Of a DNA stretch of 64,000 nucleotides, positions 5,192 to 15,426 are shown in pieces. The stretch's first letter is position 1. Each line of letters starts with the position of its first letter. The notes beneath the pieces were generated by a model. That model was not told the DNA's origin and ran no database searches. It saw nothing but the letters and a program-made list of their open reading frames with translations. Position numbers and translations under genes: made by a program. This DNA is from a phage, in the sequence record NC_100371.1. One strand, written 5' to 3'.

Positions 5192-5268
5192 TGGTCTCCA
5201 CGGAGTGATTCGAACACTCGACCTCCTGATCCCAAATCAGGCGCTCTACCAAGCTGAGCTACGCGGAG
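5192..5268 (-). tRNA. tRNA-Pro (anticodon UGG)
   Basis: Hand-folded cloverleaf: 7-bp acceptor stem, GTTCGAAT T-loop, anticodon loop TTTGGGA, encoded CCA. Confidence 0.75.
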
Positions 5269-5279
5269 TATTTATTATT

Positions 5280-5354
5280 TGGTGGCCCTGGGTGGAATTG
5301 AACCACCGTCTGGCGATTATGAGTCGCTTGCTTGAACCTTCCAGCTACAGGGCC
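5280..5354 (-). tRNA. tRNA-Met (anticodon CAU; could be initiator or Ile-lysidine type)
   Basis: Acceptor GGCCCTG/CAGGGCC, T-arm GGTGGTTCAATTCCACC, anticodon loop CTCATAA, encoded CCA. Confidence 0.7.
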
Positions 5355-5355
5355 A

Positions 5356-5431
5356 TGGTGCTGATGGCAGGACTTGAACCTGCAACCTATTGATTACAAA
5401 TCAATTGCACTGCCAATTGTGCTACATCAGC
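5356..5431 (-). tRNA. tRNA-Thr (anticodon UGU)
   Basis: Perfect 7-bp acceptor stem, D-stem GCAC/GTGC, anticodon loop TTTGTAA, T-arm GCAGGTTCAAGTCCTGC, CCA. Confidence 0.75.
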
Positions 5432-5435
5432 AAAA

Positions 5436-5534
5436 GGTGCTAGGTGATGGAATCGAACCATCTATGTATTCAACGACTACCTCGTCTATTTTCAGGATTA
5501 AAAATCCTCGCCCTTGCCAAAGGGCTTACCTAGC
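5436..5534 (-). tRNA. atypical tRNA-like gene (long variable region; anticodon not assignable by eye)
   Basis: Perfect acceptor pairing GCTAGGT/ACCTAGC and canonical T-arm GATGGTTCGATTCCATC, but about 99 nt long with an unusual anticodon-arm region (AGGAT-TTTTA-ATCCT); no complete encoded CCA. Confidence 0.4.
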
Positions 5535-5632
5535 TCAGCATGTTGACCATGTTGCTAGTCGGCGATGACGACTGTAACATTTGATAATCCGGTTCTGCTT
5601 CCGGCTTTCGCTTAATTACAAGGTCAACAATA

Positions 5633-5723
5633 TGGCAGAGGATAATGGAATCGAACCATCATCGAGTCATCCTCAACGGGACGGTTTTCAAGACCGCTTG
5701 AGCACCATTGCTCCCTACCCTCT
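5633..5723 (-). tRNA. tRNA-Ser (anticodon UGA), type II
   Basis: Acceptor AGAGGGT/ATCCTCT, anticodon loop CTTGAAA, long variable arm, T-arm GATGGTTCGATTCCATT, CCA. Confidence 0.7.
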
Positions 5724-5837
5724 TTTATAAACAATACTGATAATGACACTGATTTTCGAGCAGTTAGTGACTAGTATAAACGACGATAAATATCAATGCC
5801 ATTATCTGTATGATTTATGCATTTAAAAATATAAATT

Positions 5838-5925
5838 TGGTGGTGAGTGATGGAGTCGAACCACCCGAATCGCAATGATAACAGATTTACAGTCTGCCCC
5901 GCTACCCCTACGGAATTAACTCACC
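5838..5925 (-). tRNA. tRNA-Tyr (anticodon GUA), type II
   Basis: Acceptor GGTGAGT/ACTCACC, anticodon loop CTGTAAA, long variable arm, CCA. Confidence 0.7.
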
Positions 5926-6055
5926 TAAATACTAATATTTAAATTCTTTTTAAAATAGCTAGTGTTCTAACCACTAACTATGAGGTATCGGTAAAGTGGT
6001 TACCGCCACTTGCCGAAGATTTACTCTGCTAAAGTAAGCTACATTAAAAAGAACT

Positions 6056-6130
6056 TGGCACCCCGTACTGGACTCGAACCAGTGTCAACGGCTTAGAAGG
6101 CCGCTGCTTTATCCACTAAGCTAACAGGGC
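6056..6130 (-). tRNA. tRNA-Arg (anticodon UCU)
   Basis: Acceptor GCCCTGT/ACGGGGT, anticodon loop CTTCTAA, T-arm ACTGGTTCGAGTCCAGT, CCA. Confidence 0.75.
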
Positions 6131-9066: not shown

Positions 9067-9621
9067 TTACTCCCCGCTGTCAATAGCAAGACTCATTGCA
9101 ATACGGTATGCCTCTTCTAATGGTAAGAGTCTCCCCCACACATCCCAACCGACATCAAACTGCCTGCCAAACAACTGCTGTGTGGTTCCGTGAGCATGAC
9201 CGAACAGTTGGACTGATCCGTGAGGCTTTCTGTTCCACTTTGCAAACTGGTAATGGCTCATACAGATCAAATTCTTGTTGTGGCGAAGCTCGTAATAATC
9301 TACAACCTCATGACCGAACTCTTTCATAATTCTGACAGTCGTCCTTGTGTCATGGTTACCACGAACAAGAATAATATGTCCGTTCAACATATTTAGAACA
9401 TCTGGAAGCAATTTGTTGATATTCTTATCATTAGTGCACGCAATATCCCCCAAGTGAAACACAGTGTCTGCAGGTGACACAACAGAGTTCCACTTGGTGA
9501 TGATTCCCGCATTCATACTGTCAAGATTGTGATCATACTGAGATCTGTGTTTTTGACATGAGTCGAACTCCATTACCCGCTGGTGGAGAAAGTGTGTGTC
9601 GCTTGTTACAAAGTATTTCAT
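9067..9621 (-). CDS. calcineurin-like metallophosphoesterase
   Basis: MKYFVTSDTHF...GDIACTNDK...VRGNHDT motifs. Confidence 0.6.
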   Translation of the reverse strand: MKYFVTSDTHFLHQRVMEFDSCQKHRSQYDHNLDSMNAGIITKWNSVVSPADTVFHLGDIACTNDKNINKLLPDVLNMLNGHIILVRGNHDTRTTVRIMKEFGHEVVDYYELRHNKNLICMSHYQFAKWNRKPHGSVQLFGHAHGTTQQLFGRQFDVGWDVWGRLLPLEEAYRIAMSLAIDSGE

Positions 9622-9628
9622 ACATTCC

Positions 9629-10039
9629 TCATTTAAGTTTAATGCAGTTTTTAAGCTGGCGTTCCATACGATCCACAACCCTGTCTGGAACATCATGAAT
9701 GCTTTTATTACCATGGCGGTTTTCAACCACGATCACGGTATAACTATATCCATGACTGATCGCCATGTCAATATATTCTTGCACATATTTTTCTTTTGTA
9801 AACGTATTACTTACCACGATACGGTCGTAGCCCATACGCATCATATCTTCTACGTTATCTTTGCACCATTTTGCTGCAAGTGTTACTTTACTTGCATCCC
9901 AATTGTAATTGCCGTCATCGTCGTACCAGAACATATCGTTCTCAAAATGTGGATACAGACCTTCTAAAGATAGCGCATTTGCCAGTGTTGATTTGCCAGA
10001 CCCTGGTAGACCACGCACGATATATAGCATTTTAGACAT
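9629..10039 (-). CDS. P-loop kinase, polynucleotide-kinase-like
   Basis: ATG at 10039 with GGAGAG RBS; Walker A GLPGSGKST; about 136 aa. Confidence 0.55.
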   Translation of the reverse strand: MSKMLYIVRGLPGSGKSTLANALSLEGLYPHFENDMFWYDDDGNYNWDASKVTLAAKWCKDNVEDMMRMGYDRIVVSNTFTKEKYVQEYIDMAISHGYSYTVIVVENRHGNKSIHDVPDRVVDRMERQLKNCIKLK

Positions 10040-10139
10040 AGTAACTCTCCGTTTTAATTTTAATGATAGTATACCTAACTGTTTTGTTAATTTCAAGTGT
10101 TGACACCAGGTTATTTGTGTGGCAGAATAAAGGGACAAA

Positions 10140-11075
10140 ATGACAAATGAGGAATGTATGATGAAGTATTTTAATGCAGACGACCTGGTTGACAAAGGTC
10201 TTGTAACCAGCAGATATTACCCAGATCTTGGATTAAAGATCTACAAATATGCCAGAAAAGTATTCTACAACAATTTATGGCATTTGTCTCCGCGTTTACT
10301 AGAGTGCCGAGGCATTGTTGTCGGTAATGAAGGAAATGTTGTGGCATGGCCCTTCACAAAAGTGTTTAATTTGGGAGAAAACTCCACCAACCTGCCTGAC
10401 AATAAACTTGTGACGGCGGTAGAGAAAAAGAACGGATTCCTTGGTGTGGTATCATCTCATAAAGGTGAACTATTGTTTTCAACAACCGGGTCTCTTGATT
10501 CTCCATATTGTAACCTTGCAAAGGAAACCATCCAGGAGCAATGTGGTAATTTAGATCTTATCAAGAAGGTTATGGGCCATGAAAACATGACATTCATGTT
10601 TGAAATTTGTCACCCTTCAGATCCGCATATTGTTCAGGAAGATCATGGCGCATATTTGATAGGTTGCAGATATAATGATTCTGGAATAATGCTACCAGAA
10701 GCAGCTTTAGATGGGATTGCCAAATACCTTGGTGCAAAACGTCCTCACACTGTGCGTGAAATTCCGTTCAGCTATGCAAAAGAATTAGCTGCAGAAACAA
10801 GGGGTGAAGGGTATATGATCCGTAAGCCTTACTACCCTTATGACCTGCAACTAAAGATCAAGTCTCCCTACTATCTGGCACGGAAGGCCGTAATGAGGTG
10901 TAGAGCTTGGAAGATTTGGGATGATGATATCTTTAAACGTGTTGACGAAGAGTTTTACGGCATGGTAAACTTCATTCGTAGGAACTACACAGAAGATGTG
11001 TGGAATTGCCTCCTGGAGCAGGAACGCCGTGAGATACTTGACTGCTATTTCCACAACGAGGACTATATGCAATGA
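10140..11075 (+). CDS. RNA ligase, T4 Rnl1 (RnlA)-like
   Basis: Blocks LLECRGIVV, KVFNLGEN, EKKNGFLGVV and FSTTGSLDS parallel T4 Rnl1 ECRGIMF / KFFNLNEN / KEDGSLVS / FKSKGSIKS, including the nucleotidyl-transferase lysine. Confidence 0.6.
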   Translation: MTNEECMMKYFNADDLVDKGLVTSRYYPDLGLKIYKYARKVFYNNLWHLSPRLLECRGIVVGNEGNVVAWPFTKVFNLGENSTNLPDNKLVTAVEKKNGFLGVVSSHKGELLFSTTGSLDSPYCNLAKETIQEQCGNLDLIKKVMGHENMTFMFEICHPSDPHIVQEDHGAYLIGCRYNDSGIMLPEAALDGIAKYLGAKRPHTVREIPFSYAKELAAETRGEGYMIRKPYYPYDLQLKIKSPYYLARKAVMRCRAWKIWDDDIFKRVDEEFYGMVNFIRRNYTEDVWNCLLEQERREILDCYFHNEDYMQ

Positions 11076-11422
11076 AGAAGTTGATTGTGTGGCTTGATGA
11101 TTTTAGAGATCCGTCAGATTATGGACTACCAGACGCTCTGTGGCTGAAGAATTCTTCTGAGTTTATGGATTTTCTTAATGATAAGAGAAAGCTCTACAGA
11201 CGCGTATCTGAGTGGTATTTTGACAATGATCTAGGGGAAGTGCTTGAAGGGTACGACTGCTTCTCTGCGCTAGAGGAGAAACTTGTATTCGGAAAGCCAC
11301 CACTTATTGACAACGTGATTATTTTCGTGCATACTTCTAATCCATCGGCAGCTCGTAAATTTATGCTTGCTGCTGACTCATTCAAGAAGTTTGGAATAGA
11401 GATCAAACAAAACATCTACTAA
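11072..11422 (+). CDS. hypothetical protein
   Basis: 116 aa; ATGA overlap with the RNA ligase stop. Confidence 0.45.
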   Translation: MKKLIVWLDDFRDPSDYGLPDALWLKNSSEFMDFLNDKRKLYRRVSEWYFDNDLGEVLEGYDCFSALEEKLVFGKPPLIDNVIIFVHTSNPSAARKFMLAADSFKKFGIEIKQNIY

Positions 11423-11430
11423 GGACATTT

Positions 11431-12192
11431 ATGCGACGACTTATTGTTATTTCTGGTGCTGGCTTGAGCGCAGAATCTGGGATCCCAACTTTTCGTTCTG
11501 GTCAAACTGCAATGTGGGAGAATTTCAGCATCGATGAGGTGTGTAACATCCACACCTTTGCCAAGAACTACTATAAGGTGCATGACTTTTACAATGCACG
11601 GCGTGTAGCTCTGGGCAGTGTTGATCCTAACCTTGCACATCTCCGGATCGCTGAGTGGTATTCACGTTGGTCTGGTCGTGTGATCAACCTGACAACCAAT
11701 GTAGATGATTTGCTGGAGCGTGCTGGTGTTAAACATGAAGATATCTTACATGTCCACGGGTATTTGCCTGAAATCACCTACGAAGATGCTGAAGGTAATG
11801 ATGTAATTAAAAATATCGGATACACGGAGGTAGATACAGGCAAGTATACTTGGGTTAAGCCCAATGTGGTGTTCTTCGGTGAGGTTGCTCCTAAGTATAC
11901 AGACATGTATGACCTATTGACATCTCTTACCAGCAATGATATGGTGATCCTGGTGGGTTGTTCTAACACAGTTATTAATTTTAACTGGGAATTGTTTCCT
12001 GCTACTTGTAAAGGCACAAAACTACTGATTGTAAACAAGTATGATTCGCAGAGTGCAGATGGAAGCGGCATTTCACGTAGCGACCTTTATCAATATGAGG
12101 ATCGCGGGATCCCGGTTTGGTTTAACGGGGCGGTTGATGCTTTCTCTGATAAAACATTCATTGAGACCGTAGAAAACTTTATGGAACTTTAA
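11431..12192 (+). CDS. Sir2-family (sirtuin-like) NAD-dependent protein
   Basis: GAGLSAESGIPTFR, TNVDDL and VHG motifs; no obvious zinc-ribbon cysteines. Confidence 0.55.
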   Translation: MRRLIVISGAGLSAESGIPTFRSGQTAMWENFSIDEVCNIHTFAKNYYKVHDFYNARRVALGSVDPNLAHLRIAEWYSRWSGRVINLTTNVDDLLERAGVKHEDILHVHGYLPEITYEDAEGNDVIKNIGYTEVDTGKYTWVKPNVVFFGEVAPKYTDMYDLLTSLTSNDMVILVGCSNTVINFNWELFPATCKGTKLLIVNKYDSQSADGSGISRSDLYQYEDRGIPVWFNGAVDAFSDKTFIETVENFMEL

Positions 12193-12205
12193 AAGGAGAC
12201 CTTTA

Positions 12206-12919
12206 ATGCTGAATACCAAATTAATTGACAACCTGGAAAAACTGTCCCAGCCTGAAAACTACCTTTGGTCTGCCAACTGGGTGGAAAACTGGAACCGTGT
12301 AGCAGCTAAAGTGAAAAAATCATACACACCATTCGAACTTCAGCTGAGTTTCATTGAGGAAGAGTTCAATGAGGTTTTGGAAGAGTTGGAGAAAGGTGAT
12401 GGTGGGGATCATCTCCTAAAAGAGGCCTGCGATCTTCATGTTGTCACAAGTTATGCCGCTTATCTTGTTAACGATAACCATGAAAAGTGGTCAAACCTGT
12501 TTGATAATCCGCGAGGTCTTAAGTTTAAGATCGGTGAATTTTATGATACACTGATCGCTGCGAAAAATACCTCTAAGCAAAGAGCGTCTGCTTACCGCTT
12601 AGCAGAGTTGTCAACAGCTTTGCTGTTCCAGCTTCGCGGTGATGTGTGCGGGATGATGCGGAAGGTTCTAAAATCTAATGACAGCAAGTTTGCACGCGTC
12701 AACCATCTGCGGTATTCACACGGTGCCAGTGCAGATATGCCTGCTGAACAACTCATCGAGTTGGAGATTAAAGATCTTGAGCGACGCTTTGATGGTCGCT
12801 ATGAAGGTTTTGTTGCTAAAGAAGAATTCTACAACGGAAATAAAGTTATCATATTCCTTGACAGTAAAGGTAAGATTATGAAGCCTTCAAGCTTCAAAGA
12901 TGTAACAGAATATATTTAA
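12206..12919 (+). CDS. possible MazG-like all-alpha NTP pyrophosphohydrolase
   Basis: EEEFNEVLEELEKGD ... KEACDLHVV resembles the EExxE...ExxD metal-binding pattern; weak call. Confidence 0.35.
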   Translation: MLNTKLIDNLEKLSQPENYLWSANWVENWNRVAAKVKKSYTPFELQLSFIEEEFNEVLEELEKGDGGDHLLKEACDLHVVTSYAAYLVNDNHEKWSNLFDNPRGLKFKIGEFYDTLIAAKNTSKQRASAYRLAELSTALLFQLRGDVCGMMRKVLKSNDSKFARVNHLRYSHGASADMPAEQLIELEIKDLERRFDGRYEGFVAKEEFYNGNKVIIFLDSKGKIMKPSSFKDVTEYI

Positions 12920-12925
12920 TAACAT

Positions 12926-12952
12926 AGCCGGGGCGATCCCGGCTTTACTTGT
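12926..12952 (+). terminator. rho-independent terminator
   Basis: GCCGGGG-CGAT-CCCGGC hairpin followed by a T-rich tail. Confidence 0.5.
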
Positions 12953-13292: not shown

Positions 13293-13548
13293 TCTTGCTA
13301 AACCTGTAGAAGCACACCAGTTTGACGGAAGCTCTTCATCAGTATCTGATCTGCAACGGTGGATTGATACAGGTGTGTTTACACCGTCACCTGTTCGGAC
13401 CAGAGATATTCTTCGCATGTGTGAGCTTGTCGAGCCGTTTGGTAACCTGGTCTTGTACCAAGGGGATTGGTTAGTTGACTTTATGGGAGACTGGTTGGTA
13501 ATTAGCAAAGAAGAGATGTTTAAAATTTTTAAGGAAGAGGCTGAGTAA
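13279..13548 (+). CDS. hypothetical protein
   Basis: 89 aa; AGAAGGAGGA RBS. Confidence 0.45.
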   Translation: MQLFNLAKPVEAHQFDGSSSSVSDLQRWIDTGVFTPSPVRTRDILRMCELVEPFGNLVLYQGDWLVDFMGDWLVISKEEMFKIFKEEAE

Positions 13549-14831
13549 TGCATCAGATCAAAACAACACTGTACGCACTGAACAAAGATGGCAGCTACCA
13601 ACAGTGGAAAGTATTCACGGATGGTGATAAGGTTATCGTAGAGTTTGGCAAGCTTGATGGTAAACTGCAATACAAAGAGACGATCTGCACACCTAAGAAC
13701 GTGGGTCGTGCCAATGAAACTACAGCTGAGCAACAGGCTGAGCTGGAAGCGATCAGTAAGTGGGAAAAACAAGTCCGTCTGGGGTATGTTGAAAATATGG
13801 AAGATTGCGAGCAGGGTGTTGACCTTTTACCCATGTTGGTGCATGACTACCTGAAGCGTGGAAAGGCACTTAAATTACCTTGCTGGATTTTGCGTAAGTT
13901 AGATGGCCTTCGTCTACTGGTTGTTTTCCAAAACGGTGAGCCTAAATTTATTTCCCGTGGTAATAAGTCCTACCCTATTCAAGGAAAGCTTCTGGAGCAA
14001 CTTCGTTCTTTCCACTTCACCACCGGGATTAAACAGCTCGACGGAGAGATCTATATTCATGGTCTGCCTCTGCAGAAAATAGTGTCTCTTGCTAAACGGT
14101 GGCGCACACAGGAAGAGATTCAGGCCGAGATCGATAAAGACTACGAGGCAGATAAAAAACGCCGTCATGCCGCAATTAAGGCAGGCTTATCAACATACAA
14201 AAACTTCAATAAGGTAGATATTCCTGTTGATGTTGAGCCTGTTCGTGATGATTTGCGTTACGGAGGGTACTGTAGCTATGACTTAGAGTATCATATTTTC
14301 GACATCCCTAGTGACAAGGTATGGTGGGATCCAGAAACAGAATCTGGACGATGCAAGGATCTTATGGATGCAGAAGATACCATTACCACCCTGATGCTTG
14401 ACCATATCAAGGTTGTTGACGCAGAGCTTGCGTACACAGTTGATCATTGCGAAGAATCTGTTGGTGTATTCATGTCCGAAGGATATGAAGGTACTATCAT
14501 GCGTAACTTCTGTGGTAAATATGAATATGGTCAGCGAACATCTGAAGCATTGAAATGGAAAAAGTTCAACGATGCTGAGGTGAAAGTTATTGACGTTGAG
14601 AAAGATAAGAATGATGAAGGTGTTCTTATCTGCGTTGACAAGGAAGGTATCGTTGTTAAAATGAAGATGAAAGGCACGCACGAGGAGCGTAGCTATGACA
14701 GGATGCAGGAAATGATCGGCAAGTTTATCACCTTCAAATATCAAGCAAGGACAGAAGACAACAACTACCAATTCCCTGTCGGCATCTGCGTCCGAAATGT
14801 TAACCCTGACACTTGGGAGGTTCTGGAATGA
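13548..14831 (+). CDS. ATP-dependent DNA ligase
   Basis: 427 aa; nucleotidyl-transferase motif I KLDGLR (KxDG). Confidence 0.6.
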   Translation: MHQIKTTLYALNKDGSYQQWKVFTDGDKVIVEFGKLDGKLQYKETICTPKNVGRANETTAEQQAELEAISKWEKQVRLGYVENMEDCEQGVDLLPMLVHDYLKRGKALKLPCWILRKLDGLRLLVVFQNGEPKFISRGNKSYPIQGKLLEQLRSFHFTTGIKQLDGEIYIHGLPLQKIVSLAKRWRTQEEIQAEIDKDYEADKKRRHAAIKAGLSTYKNFNKVDIPVDVEPVRDDLRYGGYCSYDLEYHIFDIPSDKVWWDPETESGRCKDLMDAEDTITTLMLDHIKVVDAELAYTVDHCEESVGVFMSEGYEGTIMRNFCGKYEYGQRTSEALKWKKFNDAEVKVIDVEKDKNDEGVLICVDKEGIVVKMKMKGTHEERSYDRMQEMIGKFITFKYQARTEDNNYQFPVGICVRNVNPDTWEVLE

Positions 14832-14955: not shown

Positions 14956-15426
14956 ATGAAACTTGATAAAAATGTTCAACGAAAAGCTTTCTTGGATATG
15001 ATCGCATATTCAGAAGGTACAGATAATGGTAGACAACCTACCAAGGATCGGGGCTATGATGTCATAGTCGGTGGCAAGCTGTTTAGCGATTACAGTAAGC
15101 ATCCAGGTGTTTACGTTAAGCTAAATGCTAAACTTACCTCCTCTGCTGCTGGGCGTTACCAGATTTTGGAGAAGTTTGCTAAACACTATATGGAACAGTT
15201 AGGATTACCAGATTTTGGCCCTGCCAGTCAGGACAAGATTGCATTGCAACTGATCCGTGAGTGTAAGGCTCTCACTGACATTGACGAAGGTCGCATCCAC
15301 GAAGCTATCCGCAAATGCCGTTCCCGCTGGGCTTCGTTACCCGGTGCCGGATACGGTCAGCATGAACAGAAGATTGAGAAGTTGATCGAGGTGTTTAAAA
15401 AGGCAGGCGGCATTGTCCTAGATTAA
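14956..15426 (+). CDS. endolysin, lambda R-type lytic transglycosylase
   Basis: Near-collinear with lambda R: QRKAFLDMIAYSEGTDNGRQ...YDVIVGG...AGRYQ...WASLPGAGYGQ. Confidence 0.8.
   Translation: MKLDKNVQRKAFLDMIAYSEGTDNGRQPTKDRGYDVIVGGKLFSDYSKHPGVYVKLNAKLTSSAAGRYQILEKFAKHYMEQLGLPDFGPASQDKIALQLIRECKALTDIDEGRIHEAIRKCRSRWASLPGAGYGQHEQKIEKLIEVFKKAGGIVLD

What the first reader, a model, noticed from the sequence alone, without database searches (positions are those of the whole stretch)
11072..12919. Phage-encoded Sir2-like protein followed by a putative MazG-like NTP pyrophosphatase
The 253-aa ORF has sirtuin hallmarks (GAGLSAESGIPTFR, TNVDDL, catalytic-His context HVHG) but no zinc-ribbon cysteines, as in some bacterial Sir2 NADases. 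Sir2 domains are effector modules in several bacterial anti-phage systems that degrade NAD+, so a phage copy could act as a counter-defense, a host-takeover NADase or ADP-ribosyltransferase, or a deacylase. The next gene resembles an all-alpha NTP pyrophosphohydrolase (EExxE...ExxD), and the pair directly follows the RNA ligase and an unknown 116-aa ORF.
Basis: partly seen in the sequence, partly recalled or inferred. Interest (0 to 1): 0.7.

Follow-up and report, generated by a model that had tools for sequence, protein, structure and literature searches.

The report
Phage sirtuin inside RNA-repair operon
An rV5-like E. coli phage carries a zinc-free, CobB-like sirtuin in one operon with an RNA ligase, a "cyclic-phosphate" receiver-like enzyme and a dUTPase-like pyrophosphatase; this arrangement is already annotated and was described in 2022 as a predicted NAD-dependent RNA-repair system, but nobody has tested it.

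Summary
ORFs at 11431-12192 (Sir2, Pfam E 5e-28) and 12206-12919 (all-alpha NTP pyrophosphatase fold) are real. The "unknown" 116-aa ORF is a cREC domain protein (PF20274).

The window is an rV5-like Vequintavirus. The genes are 93-99% identical to genes already annotated as Sir2 in more than 100 phage records. Iyer et al. 2022 (PMC9503650) describe exactly this neighbourhood and predict that the sirtuin removes RNA 2'-phosphate the way KptA/Tpt1 does.

What I add:
- The sirtuin is class III (CobB/SIRT5-like). His109 and the Y54/R57 anion-binding pair are invariant, the canonical Gln is replaced by Thr (TNVD), there are no zinc cysteines, and the pI is acidic.
- It is not a defence-type Sir2 NADase.
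- Sir2 is linked to cREC and a pyrophosphatase in unrelated jumbo phages, and to an RNA-repair HAD phosphatase in T5-like phages. It is absent from the same gene block in GAP31 and unlinked in the phi92-like phages and in three other lineages examined.
- The "MazG-like" protein is structurally closest to dimeric dUTPases. It travels with the DNA ligase, not with Sir2, so the pair is probably not a functional pair.

Best reading: an RNA heal-and-seal module with a Tpt1-like sirtuin (about 0.4). Main rival: an ordinary lysine deacylase (about 0.3).

The parts
10100..10128 (+). Sigma-70-type promoter-like site (TTGACA, 17 nt, CAGAAT preceded by TG) in the 100-bp divergent intergenic region upstream of the RNA ligase
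   Evidence: 10 of 12 matches, TG present; sequence read. A consensus match only; no transcription data.
10140..11075 (+). Rnl1-type (T4 RnlA-like) RNA ligase, 311 aa
   Evidence: PF09511 E 8.2e-15, phrog_562 E 1.7e-65. No match by sequence to any solved structure at E<0.01. Its stop codon overlaps the cREC start (ATGA).
   Evidence: PF20274 E 1.1e-13 (cut-off 27, score 52.1), phrog_1479 E 6.7e-33. Invariant D9, D10, R12, F50, D51, D53, L54, G55, V86, H87, N90, P91 across five phage lineages. The activity is predicted only (PMC9503650).
11431..12192 (+). Zinc-free class III (CobB/SIRT5-like) sirtuin, 253 aa
   Evidence: PF02146 E 5.4e-28. Best solved relatives are CobB 1s5p (E 2.9e-21) and SIRT5. 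AF2 pLDDT 88.5, pTM 0.87. Foldseek top hits are CobB (target TM 0.82-0.83), then SIRT5. Invariant H109, Y54, R57, N90, D92.
12206..12919 (+). All-alpha NTP pyrophosphatase ('MazG-like'), closest in fold to dimeric dUTPases, with an extra C-terminal beta-hairpin module; 237 aa
12926..12944 (.). GC-rich hairpin, terminator-like on the + strand, 7 nt after the MazG-like stop codon; it closes the four-gene unit
   Evidence: 8 pairs, 6 of them G-C, followed by TTACTTGTTT. It is also called on the - strand.
9629..10039 (-). P-loop kinase (AAA_33, polynucleotide-kinase-like), 136 aa from Met51 of the longer ORF; divergent from the ligase operon
   Evidence: PF13671 E 9.5e-10; phrog_2071 E 8.7e-59; phrog_505 'polynucleotide kinase' E 9e-10. 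Start chosen as in the annotated relative. In relatives it lies on the same strand between cREC and Sir2.
9067..9621 (-). Calcineurin-like metallophosphoesterase (probable start at Met36 of the 9067-9726 ORF)
   Evidence: PF00149 E 4.6e-6, PF12850 E 3.5e-6, phrog_547 E 5.3e-52. Solved relative Aquifex aq_1665 1xm7, E 3e-11. Conserved in the same block in the Klebsiella, Salmonella, Cronobacter and phi92-like phages.
13548..14831 (+). ATP-dependent DNA ligase; the syntenic neighbour of the block, and in relatives it lies directly after Sir2
   Evidence: PF01068 and PF14743, phrog_114 E 1.7e-82; synteny.

Best explanation
The finding sits in an early-expressed phage RNA (probably tRNA) heal-and-seal module. 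The unit at 10100-12944 encodes an Rnl1-type RNA ligase, a cREC phosphoesterase-like protein, a sirtuin and a pyrophosphatase. A Pnk-like kinase and a calcineurin-like phosphoesterase are transcribed divergently.

Proposed pathway:
1. A host metal-independent RNase cuts tRNA, leaving 2',3'-cyclic phosphate and 5'-OH ends.
2. The kinase phosphorylates the 5'-OH.
3. cREC and/or the metallophosphoesterase open the cyclic phosphate.
4. The ligase seals the break.
5. The sirtuin uses NAD+ to take off a remaining 2'-phosphate, as Tpt1/KptA does. The phosphate oxygen attacks C1'' of NAD+ and nicotinamide leaves. [quoted passage not shown]
6. cREC (with a Nudix partner in the jumbo phages) then processes that product.

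The invariant class III Tyr54/Arg57 pair would hold a phosphate in place of the succinyl carboxylate.

Shown: the domain identities, the operon boundaries, residue conservation, the folds and the recurring gene linkage. Inferred: every catalytic step, including the RNA substrate of the sirtuin. That idea was first published by Iyer et al. 2022.

The MazG-like gene is more likely a dUTPase-like dNTP pyrophosphatase that is merely co-transcribed here.
For: - Domain calls for all six genes.
- Tight junctions and a promoter-to-terminator unit.
- The same gene set occurs in the Klebsiella, Salmonella and metagenomic Mydovirus-like phages, with Sir2 between the kinase and the DNA ligase.
- Independent linkage in unrelated jumbo phages: 2H/Acb1-like, Sir2, then a Nudt16-like Nudix fused to or followed by cREC, then PIN-PhoH.
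- In T5-like SP15, Sir2 lies two genes upstream of HAD_SAK_2, an RNA-repair HAD phosphatase (E 5e-20).
- The catalytic His, the NAD-binding residues and the anion-binding Y/R pair are invariant across homologues of 47-93% identity.
- No macro domain was seen in the neighbourhoods examined, and no defence-system signature was found.
- A phage tRNA cluster lies about 4 kb upstream.
- The published prediction for exactly this neighbourhood (PMC9503650, section 3.7.3).
- From established chemistry: the sirtuin and Tpt1 mechanisms both begin with an oxygen nucleophile attacking C1' of NAD+ and continue with attack by the ribose 2'-OH.
Against: - There are no experimental data on any member.
- The family is uniformly acidic (pI 4.6-5.8, median 5.0), and I saw no conserved basic residues beyond those shared with CobB. 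Neither is expected of a protein that binds tRNA by itself.
- Its nearest relatives are genuine protein deacylases, and the residues of the FGE loop that lines the acyl-lysine tunnel are kept.
- The kinase, metallophosphoesterase and ligase already form a complete T4-like or Clostridium-like repair set that needs no 2'-phosphotransferase.
- GAP31 keeps the ligase, cREC, kinase, phosphoesterase and MazG-like genes but has no Sir2 in its whole genome.
- In phi92-like phages Sir2 lies 28-33 kb from the block.
- Roughly two thirds of the 1011 Sir2-bearing phage records (mainly T5-like) appear to lack this ligase type, cREC and the MazG-like gene.
- Two further metagenomic lineages show no RNA-repair neighbours.
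Confidence: 0.4

Rival explanations
1. The sirtuin is what its sequence says: a CobB-like NAD+-dependent protein lysine deacylase (deacetylase or desuccinylase). It acts on host or phage proteins early in infection. One possibility is removal of inactivating acyl groups from phosphate- or nucleotide-binding lysines, such as the catalytic lysines of the RNA and DNA ligases that flank it in relatives. Its position among RNA-repair genes would then reflect shared early expression or a protein target within that module.
For: - The best sequence and fold matches are E. coli CobB and SIRT5.
- The FYNARR segment is identical to CobB's. By the numbering check it holds CobB Y92 and R95, and that pair is invariant in the family.
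- The catalytic His, the NxD motif and the VVFFGE loop are all kept.
- The acidic pI fits a protein substrate at least as well as an RNA substrate.
- Sir2 occurs in many phages with no RNA ligase or cREC.
- In relatives it sits between the kinase and the DNA ligase.
Against: - The whole clade has lost the zinc ribbon. From my own knowledge, all characterised sirtuin deacylases have one.
- The canonical Gln of the QNxD motif is always Thr.
- Repeated, independent linkage to phosphoesterases that act on RNA ends or ADP-ribose derivatives (cREC, Nudt16-like Nudix, 2H, HAD_SAK_2) is not explained by a general deacylase role.
- E. coli already has CobB, and host CobB has been reported to restrict phage growth (abstract of PMC4271551).
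Confidence: 0.3
2. The sirtuin works on NAD+ or small NAD-derived molecules, not on a macromolecule. It would be an NAD+ glycohydrolase, or an ADP-ribose-derivative-forming enzyme, used for host takeover or for counter-defence. cREC and a pyrophosphatase would then degrade the products.
For: - The recurring Sir2, pyrophosphatase and cREC trio.
- NAD-salvage genes (NAMPT, NMNAT) directly upstream in GAP32, and NAPRTase/PRPP synthetase near the block in a Mydovirus-like contig.
- An Acb1-like 2H phosphodiesterase two genes upstream in GAP32.
- Sir2 domains can be pure NADases in defence systems (PMC9503650, section 3.3.2).
Against: - The protein is not of the defence NADase type: SIR2_2 is below its cut-off and there is no significant PADLOC hit.
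- The substrate-side residues (Y54, R57, the FGE loop) are invariant, which a simple NADase would not need.
- Draining NAD+ would harm a phage whose relatives invest in NAD salvage.
- This window holds no NAD-salvage gene.
Confidence: 0.12
3. The Sir2 and MazG-like genes are not a functional pair. The MazG-like protein is a dimeric-dUTPase-like dNTP pyrophosphatase (dUTP or dCTP to dUMP or dCMP). It belongs to DNA-precursor metabolism, for example feeding the phage ThyX thymidylate synthase, and lies next to Sir2 only in rV5-like phages. This concerns the second gene only and is compatible with any of the readings of the sirtuin.
For: - In the Klebsiella, Salmonella, Cronobacter and phi92-like relatives the gene follows the DNA ligase and precedes exonuclease or polymerase genes, two to three genes away from Sir2 or in a different region.
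- GAP31 keeps it (33% identity) although it has no Sir2.
- ThyX and RNR homologues are in this window.
Against: - In this phage it is co-transcribed with Sir2, 13 nt downstream.
- In the jumbo phages a different pyrophosphatase (Nudix) occupies the position next to Sir2, which would fit non-homologous replacement within one pathway.
- Iyer et al. count it as part of the sirtuin neighbourhood.
- One of the four canonical acidic residues (E73) is not conserved.
- The conserved C-terminal hairpin with GKIMKP has no counterpart in the dUTPase matches.
- There is no Pfam dUTPase_2 hit.
Confidence: 0.5

Closest known systems
Sirtuin-centred phage RNA-repair neighbourhood, type 2 of Iyer, Burroughs, Anantharaman and Aravind 2022 (Viruses 14:1977, PMC9503650, section 3.7.3; prototypes Escherichia phage V5 and Proteus phage Mydo)
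   Same: It is the same phage group and the same gene set: sirtuin, T4-like RNA ligase, cREC, nucleotide kinase, MazG-superfamily pyrophosphatase and calcineurin-like phosphoesterase. All six were re-identified here.
   Different: Nothing differs in gene content; this window is an instance of it. The paper gives no residue-level or structural description. Added here: the class III affinity, the invariant Y/R pair, the Gln-to-Thr change, the loss of zinc, the acidic pI, the natural absence of Sir2 in GAP31, and the weak linkage of the MazG-like gene.
E. coli CobB and human SIRT5 (class III sirtuin lysine deacylases)
   Same: Best sequence match (E about 1e-21) and best fold match (TM up to 0.83). 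The GAGxSxESGIxTFR and FYNARR segments are identical or near-identical, and the catalytic His, NxD motif, FGE loop and GxS are shared.
   Different: There are no zinc-binding cysteines. The motif is TNVD, not QNID. The protein is acidic. The segment after GxS (SNxVINF) lacks the usual VxP. The family appears restricted to phages.
Tpt1/KptA RNA 2'-phosphotransferase
   Same: It is the proposed functional analogue: NAD+-consuming, nicotinamide-releasing, and linked to an RNA ligase and cyclic-phosphate-processing enzymes.
   Different: It has an unrelated fold (ADP-ribosyltransferase versus Rossmann-type sirtuin). There is no sequence or structural similarity, and no activity has been shown for the phage protein. 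The resemblance is inferred from context and chemistry only.
Bacteriophage T4 Pnkp and Rnl1 tRNA repair pathway (countering the PrrC anticodon nuclease)
   Same: An Rnl1-family ligase together with a 5'-kinase and a 3'-end phosphoesterase in a lytic coliphage, and a phage that carries its own tRNA genes.
   Different: The kinase and phosphoesterase are separate proteins, and the phosphoesterase is calcineurin-like, not HAD. cREC and a sirtuin are additional. The ligase is too diverged to match T4 Rnl1 in the solved-structure search.
Defence-system Sir2 NADases (ThsA, DSR1/2, SIR2-HerA, SIR2-APAZ/pAgo)
   Same: Sir2 superfamily fold and NAD+ binding.
   Different: The SIR2_2 model scores below its cut-off (E 0.095). 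There is no significant PADLOC defence-model hit, no fused or adjacent sensor or partner, and the protein is encoded by a lytic phage.
Dimeric dUTPases and the all-alpha NTP pyrophosphatase superfamily (staphylococcal phage Dut 5MYD, C. jejuni 1W2Y, MazG, HisE)
   Different: Only 132 of 237 residues align, at 14% identity. There is an extra conserved C-terminal beta-hairpin/GKIMKP module. No Pfam dUTPase_2 or MazG hit. The substrate is unknown.

Membership tests
Sirtuin / SIR2 family (PF02146) | Significant match to the family profile over its full length | tested here: met
   98.6 bits against a cut-off of 24, covering profile positions 1-178 of 180.
Sirtuin / SIR2 family (PF02146) | Rossmann-type large domain plus small domain (the sirtuin fold) | tested here: met
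   AF2 pLDDT 88.5. Foldseek probability 1.00 and TM 0.74-0.83 to CobB, SIRT5, Sir2Af and Sir2Tm.
Sirtuin / SIR2 family (PF02146) | Catalytic His and NAD+-binding motifs (GAGxS, xNxD, GxS, N) | tested here: met
   H109, G9-A10-G11, S16, N90, D92, G176, S178 and N202 are invariant in 30 sequences. The Gln preceding N90 is replaced by Thr throughout.
Sirtuin / SIR2 family (PF02146) | Cys4 zinc ribbon in the small domain | tested here: not met
   No CxxC pairs occur in this protein or in any of the 30 aligned homologues. The beta-sheet scaffold is kept.
Sirtuin / SIR2 family (PF02146) | NAD+-dependent deacylase or ADP-ribosyltransferase activity | not testable with these tools
   No biochemical data were found for any phage member.
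Class III sirtuins (CobB/SIRT5) | Tyr-x-x-Arg pair that binds the acyl carboxylate (CobB Y92/R95, SIRT5 Y102/R105) | tested here: met
   Phage Y54 and R57 align with that pair in the CobB and SIRT5 alignments and are invariant in the family. The CobB numbering was checked against the mutant names in PDB titles.
Defence-type Sir2 NADases (SIR2_2 PF13289; ThsA, DSR, HerA- or pAgo-associated) | Match to SIR2_2 or to defence-system profiles, with a sensor or partner domain | tested here: not met
   SIR2_2 scores 13.2 bits against a cut-off of 24.5. PADLOC gives only one marginal hit (E 0.0094, 33 residues). It is a single-domain protein with no SLOG, TIR, HerA or Ago neighbour.
Tpt1/KptA RNA 2'-phosphotransferase (PF01885) | ADP-ribosyltransferase fold with the Arg-His-Arg-Arg catalytic tetrad | tested here: not met
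   No Pfam, NCBIfam or structural match to Tpt1; the fold is sirtuin. It can only be a functional analogue.
Tpt1/KptA RNA 2'-phosphotransferase (PF01885) | [quoted passage not shown] | not testable with these tools
   Needs enzymology or complementation of yeast tpt1-delta.
Sirtuin-centred phage RNA-repair neighbourhood (Iyer et al. 2022, type 2) | Sirtuin gene linked to a T4-like RNA ligase, cREC, a nucleotide kinase and a MazG-superfamily pyrophosphatase, with or without a calcineurin-like phosphoesterase | tested here: met
   All six genes lie within 9067-12919. The definition is quoted from PMC9503650.
cREC (PF20274) | Profile match and the receiver-like acidic pocket | tested here: met
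   52.1 bits against a cut-off of 27. D9, D10, D51 and D53 are invariant across five lineages. The catalytic activity itself is untested anywhere.
MazG / all-alpha NTP pyrophosphohydrolase superfamily | Four-helix-bundle core with EExxE...ExxD metal-binding acids | tested here: inconclusive
Dimeric dUTPase (dUTPase_2) | Profile match, conserved dUTPase motifs, and dUTP/dUDP hydrolysis | tested here: inconclusive

The most novel reading that the evidence does not exclude
A zinc-free sirtuin clade, derived from class III and found only in phages, has switched from acyl-lysine to a nucleic-acid phosphate as its nucleophile. It would remove RNA 2'-phosphates, or ADP-ribosylate RNA ends, during tRNA repair. 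That would make it the first sirtuin with an RNA substrate and a non-homologous replacement for Tpt1/KptA. The conserved Tyr/Arg 'desuccinylase' pair would be re-used to bind phosphate, and cREC would be the enzyme that clears ADP-ribose cyclic phosphate.
Probability: 0.35. Interest if true: 0.8.

Novelty: already known. Interest (0 to 1): 0.4.

Why it matters
If the published prediction is correct, sirtuin chemistry extends to RNA. Phages would then have a second, independently evolved NAD-dependent way of finishing tRNA repair after attack by host anticodon nucleases. The family is large: about 1000 of roughly 50,000 phage records carry it, including T5-like and rV5-like phages considered for therapy. 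A defined activity would therefore re-annotate many genomes and could explain differences in sensitivity to RNA-targeting defence systems.

If the protein is instead a plain deacylase, it would be a phage tool for resetting host or phage protein acylation. That would be useful to know but less surprising.

As a finding from this window it is not new. The gene is already annotated and its context is published. What remains open is the biochemistry.

Tried and rejected
1. Defence-type NADase reading: rejected on profile evidence.
2. A conserved small partner ORF overlapping the Sir2 start. An all-against-all BLAST of 22 flanking ORFs from eight lineages, plus two small ORFs from downstream of the unit in this window, found only one related pair, the membrane proteins of the two jumbo phages.
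3. A DUF7275/DUF7277 protein lies near Sir2 in both ukendt and nt-1 but is absent from this window. It remains unexplained.
4. Solved-structure searches with the RNA ligase, cREC and kinase, to decide whether the ligase is Trl1-like and needs a 2'-phosphate, returned nothing useful.
5. NAD-salvage, NADAR, Rnl2, 2H, Nudix and HAD_SAK genes known from related or other Sir2-bearing phages were looked for in the window. None was found in these 64 kb.
6. Five literature searches for experimental work on phage sirtuins, cREC or rV5/T5 Sir2 found none (papers checked).
7. The afdb50 fold library was unavailable.
8. The model coordinates could not be read, so no electrostatic surface or docking analysis was possible. 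Only pI and residue conservation were used.

Full report
**Identity of the window.** The 6-kb stretch around the finding is 95-97% identical to more than 100 complete genomes of rV5-like E. coli myoviruses (Vequintavirus). In those records the 253-aa gene is already named Sir2, NAD-dependent deacetylase or CobB. So the object was not previously unseen.

**Checking the observation.** The 253-aa protein matches Pfam SIR2 over the whole profile (E 5.4e-28) and phrog_2162 (E 2e-108). Its best solved relatives by sequence are E. coli CobB (E 2.9e-21) and SIRT5.

An AlphaFold model built on 30 homologues is confident (pLDDT 88.5, pTM 0.87). Its best structural matches are CobB (target TM 0.82-0.83), then SIRT5 and the archaeal and Thermotoga Sir2 proteins.

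In a family alignment spanning 47-93% identity, the NAD-binding and catalytic residues are invariant: G9-A10-G11, S16, G17, F21, R22, N90, D92, H109, the FFxE151 loop, G176, S178 and N202. No member has the zinc-ribbon cysteines, although the model keeps the ribbon's three-stranded sheet.

- The FYNARR segment is identical to CobB's and holds the Tyr/Arg pair that defines class III sirtuins. I verified the numbering (CobB Y92, R95) from the alignment and from the mutant names in the PDB titles.
- The Gln of the canonical QNxD motif is Thr in every member.

A conserved C-terminal beta-hairpin with GKIMKP has no counterpart in the matched structures.

The "unknown" 116-aa ORF is a cREC protein (PF20274, E 1e-13). 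It has an enzyme-like set of invariant residues (D9, D10, R12, D51, D53, H87, N90).

On the other strand, starting 100 bp from the ligase gene, lie two more genes:
- a P-loop kinase with polynucleotide-kinase affinities;
- a calcineurin-like phosphoesterase.

The four plus-strand genes are packed tightly (ATGA overlap, then gaps of 8 nt and 13 nt). They are bracketed by a near-consensus promoter-like site at 10100-10128 and a GC-rich terminator-like hairpin at 12926-12944. A cluster of six phage tRNA genes lies about 4 kb upstream.

**Prior knowledge.** Iyer, Burroughs, Anantharaman and Aravind (Viruses 2022; PMC9503650) describe this very neighbourhood, naming Escherichia phage V5 and Proteus phage Mydo. 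[quoted passage not shown]

They propose that the sirtuin removes 2'-phosphates from repaired RNA as KptA/Tpt1 does, and that the phosphoesterases open the cyclic phosphate or process the ADP-ribose cyclic phosphate product. They state that most viral sirtuins belong to this clade. I found no experimental test of this idea, or of any phage sirtuin or cREC protein.

**Independent test of the context argument.** The family is large: 950 protein clusters and 1011 of 50,697 phage records.

The linkage holds in three unrelated settings:
- *Mydovirus-like phages.* In Klebsiella, Salmonella and metagenomic examples the order is phosphoesterase, RNA ligase, cREC, kinase, Sir2, DNA ligase, two small genes, MazG-like.
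- *Jumbo phages GAP32 and SHEFM2K* (Sir2 only 38-42% identical). Sir2 is followed directly by a Nudt16-like Nudix that is fused to cREC or followed by it, and then by a PIN-PhoH protein. GAP32 also has a 2H/Acb1-like gene two genes upstream and NAD-salvage genes nearby.
- *T5-like SP15.* Sir2 lies two genes upstream of a HAD_SAK_2 phosphatase, the RNA-repair HAD clade.

The linkage fails elsewhere:
- In phi92-like phages the ligase, cREC, kinase, DNA ligase and MazG-like block is intact, but Sir2 lies 28-33 kb away.
- In Vibrio phage nt-1 and in two metagenomic lineages no RNA-repair domain is recognisable next to Sir2.
- In Cronobacter phage GAP31 the block is present (cREC 62% identical, kinase 47%, ligase 46%, phosphoesterase 46%, MazG-like 33%), but the whole genome has no Sir2.
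- By organism counts, T5-like phages make up most Sir2 carriers and appear to lack this ligase type, cREC and the MazG-like gene. About 180 Pseudomonas phages have the ligase without Sir2.

So Sir2 is an accessory to the RNA-repair block and is not an obligatory component of it. The published association is real but not universal.

**The sirtuin's likely action.** Three readings remain.

*Tpt1-like reading.* Support:
- the repeated, independent linkage to enzymes of RNA-end or ADP-ribose-phosphate chemistry;
- the lack of a macro-domain partner in the neighbourhoods examined;
- the strict conservation of an anion-binding Tyr/Arg pair that could hold a phosphate;
- the close formal similarity of the two mechanisms, in which an oxygen nucleophile attacks NAD+ C1' and the ribose 2'-OH attacks next (established chemistry; the link to this protein is inference).

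Against:
- the family's uniformly acidic pI (median 5.0);
- no conserved basic residues beyond those shared with CobB;
- the kinase, phosphoesterase and ligase already make a complete repair set;
- the natural absences listed above.

*Deacylase reading.* It is favoured by plain homology and by retention of every deacylase hallmark except the zinc site. It does not explain the neighbours.

The protein is not of the defence type, and it conserves substrate-side residues that a simple NADase would not need.

I put these at about 0.4, 0.3 and 0.12. A SirTM-like protein ADP-ribosyltransferase and other possibilities make up the rest.

**The second gene.** Synteny shows that the MazG-like gene is tied to the DNA ligase, exonuclease and polymerase region, not to Sir2. 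It also persists without Sir2 in GAP31.

Its fold is nearest to dimeric dUTPases. GAP31 has ThyX and ribonucleotide reductase but no detectable trimeric dUTPase or dCMP deaminase.

A role as a dUTP or dCTP pyrophosphatase that supplies dUMP is therefore at least as likely (about 0.5) as a role in cleaving ADP-ribose derivatives. Two observations keep the ADP-ribose idea open: in the jumbo phages a Nudix enzyme occupies the place beside Sir2, and in this phage the MazG-like gene is co-transcribed with Sir2.

**Verdict.**
- The object is already annotated and its context already published, so it is not novel as a discovery.
- It remains a good experimental target, because a sirtuin acting on RNA would be a new activity for the superfamily.

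Noticed in passing
window 23741-24719 (+): The ThyX (FAD-dependent thymidylate synthase) homologue is split into two overlapping ORFs in different frames, 23741-24034 (97 aa) and 23979-24719 (246 aa). GAP31 has a single 332-aa gene. This could be a frameshift, a genuinely split gene or a sequencing error.
   Followed up: partly
window 12206-12919; GenBank records MN850630, MN850578, MN850627; BFVD A0A7H0XDZ2: In several rV5-like records the MazG-like gene is annotated 'putative Sir2-like protein'. This looks like a name carried over from the neighbouring gene.
   Followed up: no
L001 6513-7193 (Escherichia phage NHEP1, PQ511146): The Sir2 gene is annotated with a late start codon, which removes the N-terminal GAGxS NAD-binding motif. 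The ORF in this window starts 27 codons earlier and has a good ribosome-binding site.
   Followed up: partly
phage records MG0656xx: About 20 records named 'Campylobacter phage', with host given as C. jejuni, are 95-99% identical to E. coli rV5-like phages. The 'Campylobacter'-labelled records that carry T5-type Sir2 look equally misplaced. The host labels look doubtful.
   Followed up: no
window 5192-6130 (-): A cluster of six tRNA genes: Pro(TGG), Met(CAT), Thr(TGT), Ser(TGA), Arg(TCT), and an odd 99-nt call with a four-base anticodon at 5436-5534. A relative annotates a tRNA-Tyr in this region. The cluster lies about 4 kb upstream of the RNA-repair genes.
   Followed up: no
L004 1797-2738 (phage ukendt) and L005 1843-2604 (Vibrio phage nt-1): A DUF7277+DUF7275 protein lies about 3 kb upstream of Sir2 in two unrelated phage lineages. 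It has no homologue in this window. Its function is unknown.
   Followed up: partly
L012-L014 (Cronobacter phage GAP31, whole genome): This relative keeps the ligase, cREC, kinase, phosphoesterase and MazG-like block but has no Sir2. It encodes NAMPT, NMNAT, PnuC, PRPP synthetase, a NADAR protein, Rnl2 and 26 tRNAs. It is a natural 'Sir2 knockout' for comparison.
   Followed up: yes
window 14635-14662 (+): The best promoter-like site in the region (TTGACA, 16 nt, TAAAAT with TG; 11 of 12 matches). It lies inside the 3' end of the DNA ligase gene, upstream of the lysozyme-like gene at 14956.
   Followed up: no
L010 3955-4275 and L011 3694-4020 (phi92-like phages): A roughly 107-aa gene annotated 'hol-like chemotaxis' follows the kinase in the RNA-repair block of phi92-like phages, where rV5-like relatives have cREC or Sir2. 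It might be a second receiver-like protein. I did not examine it.
   Followed up: no
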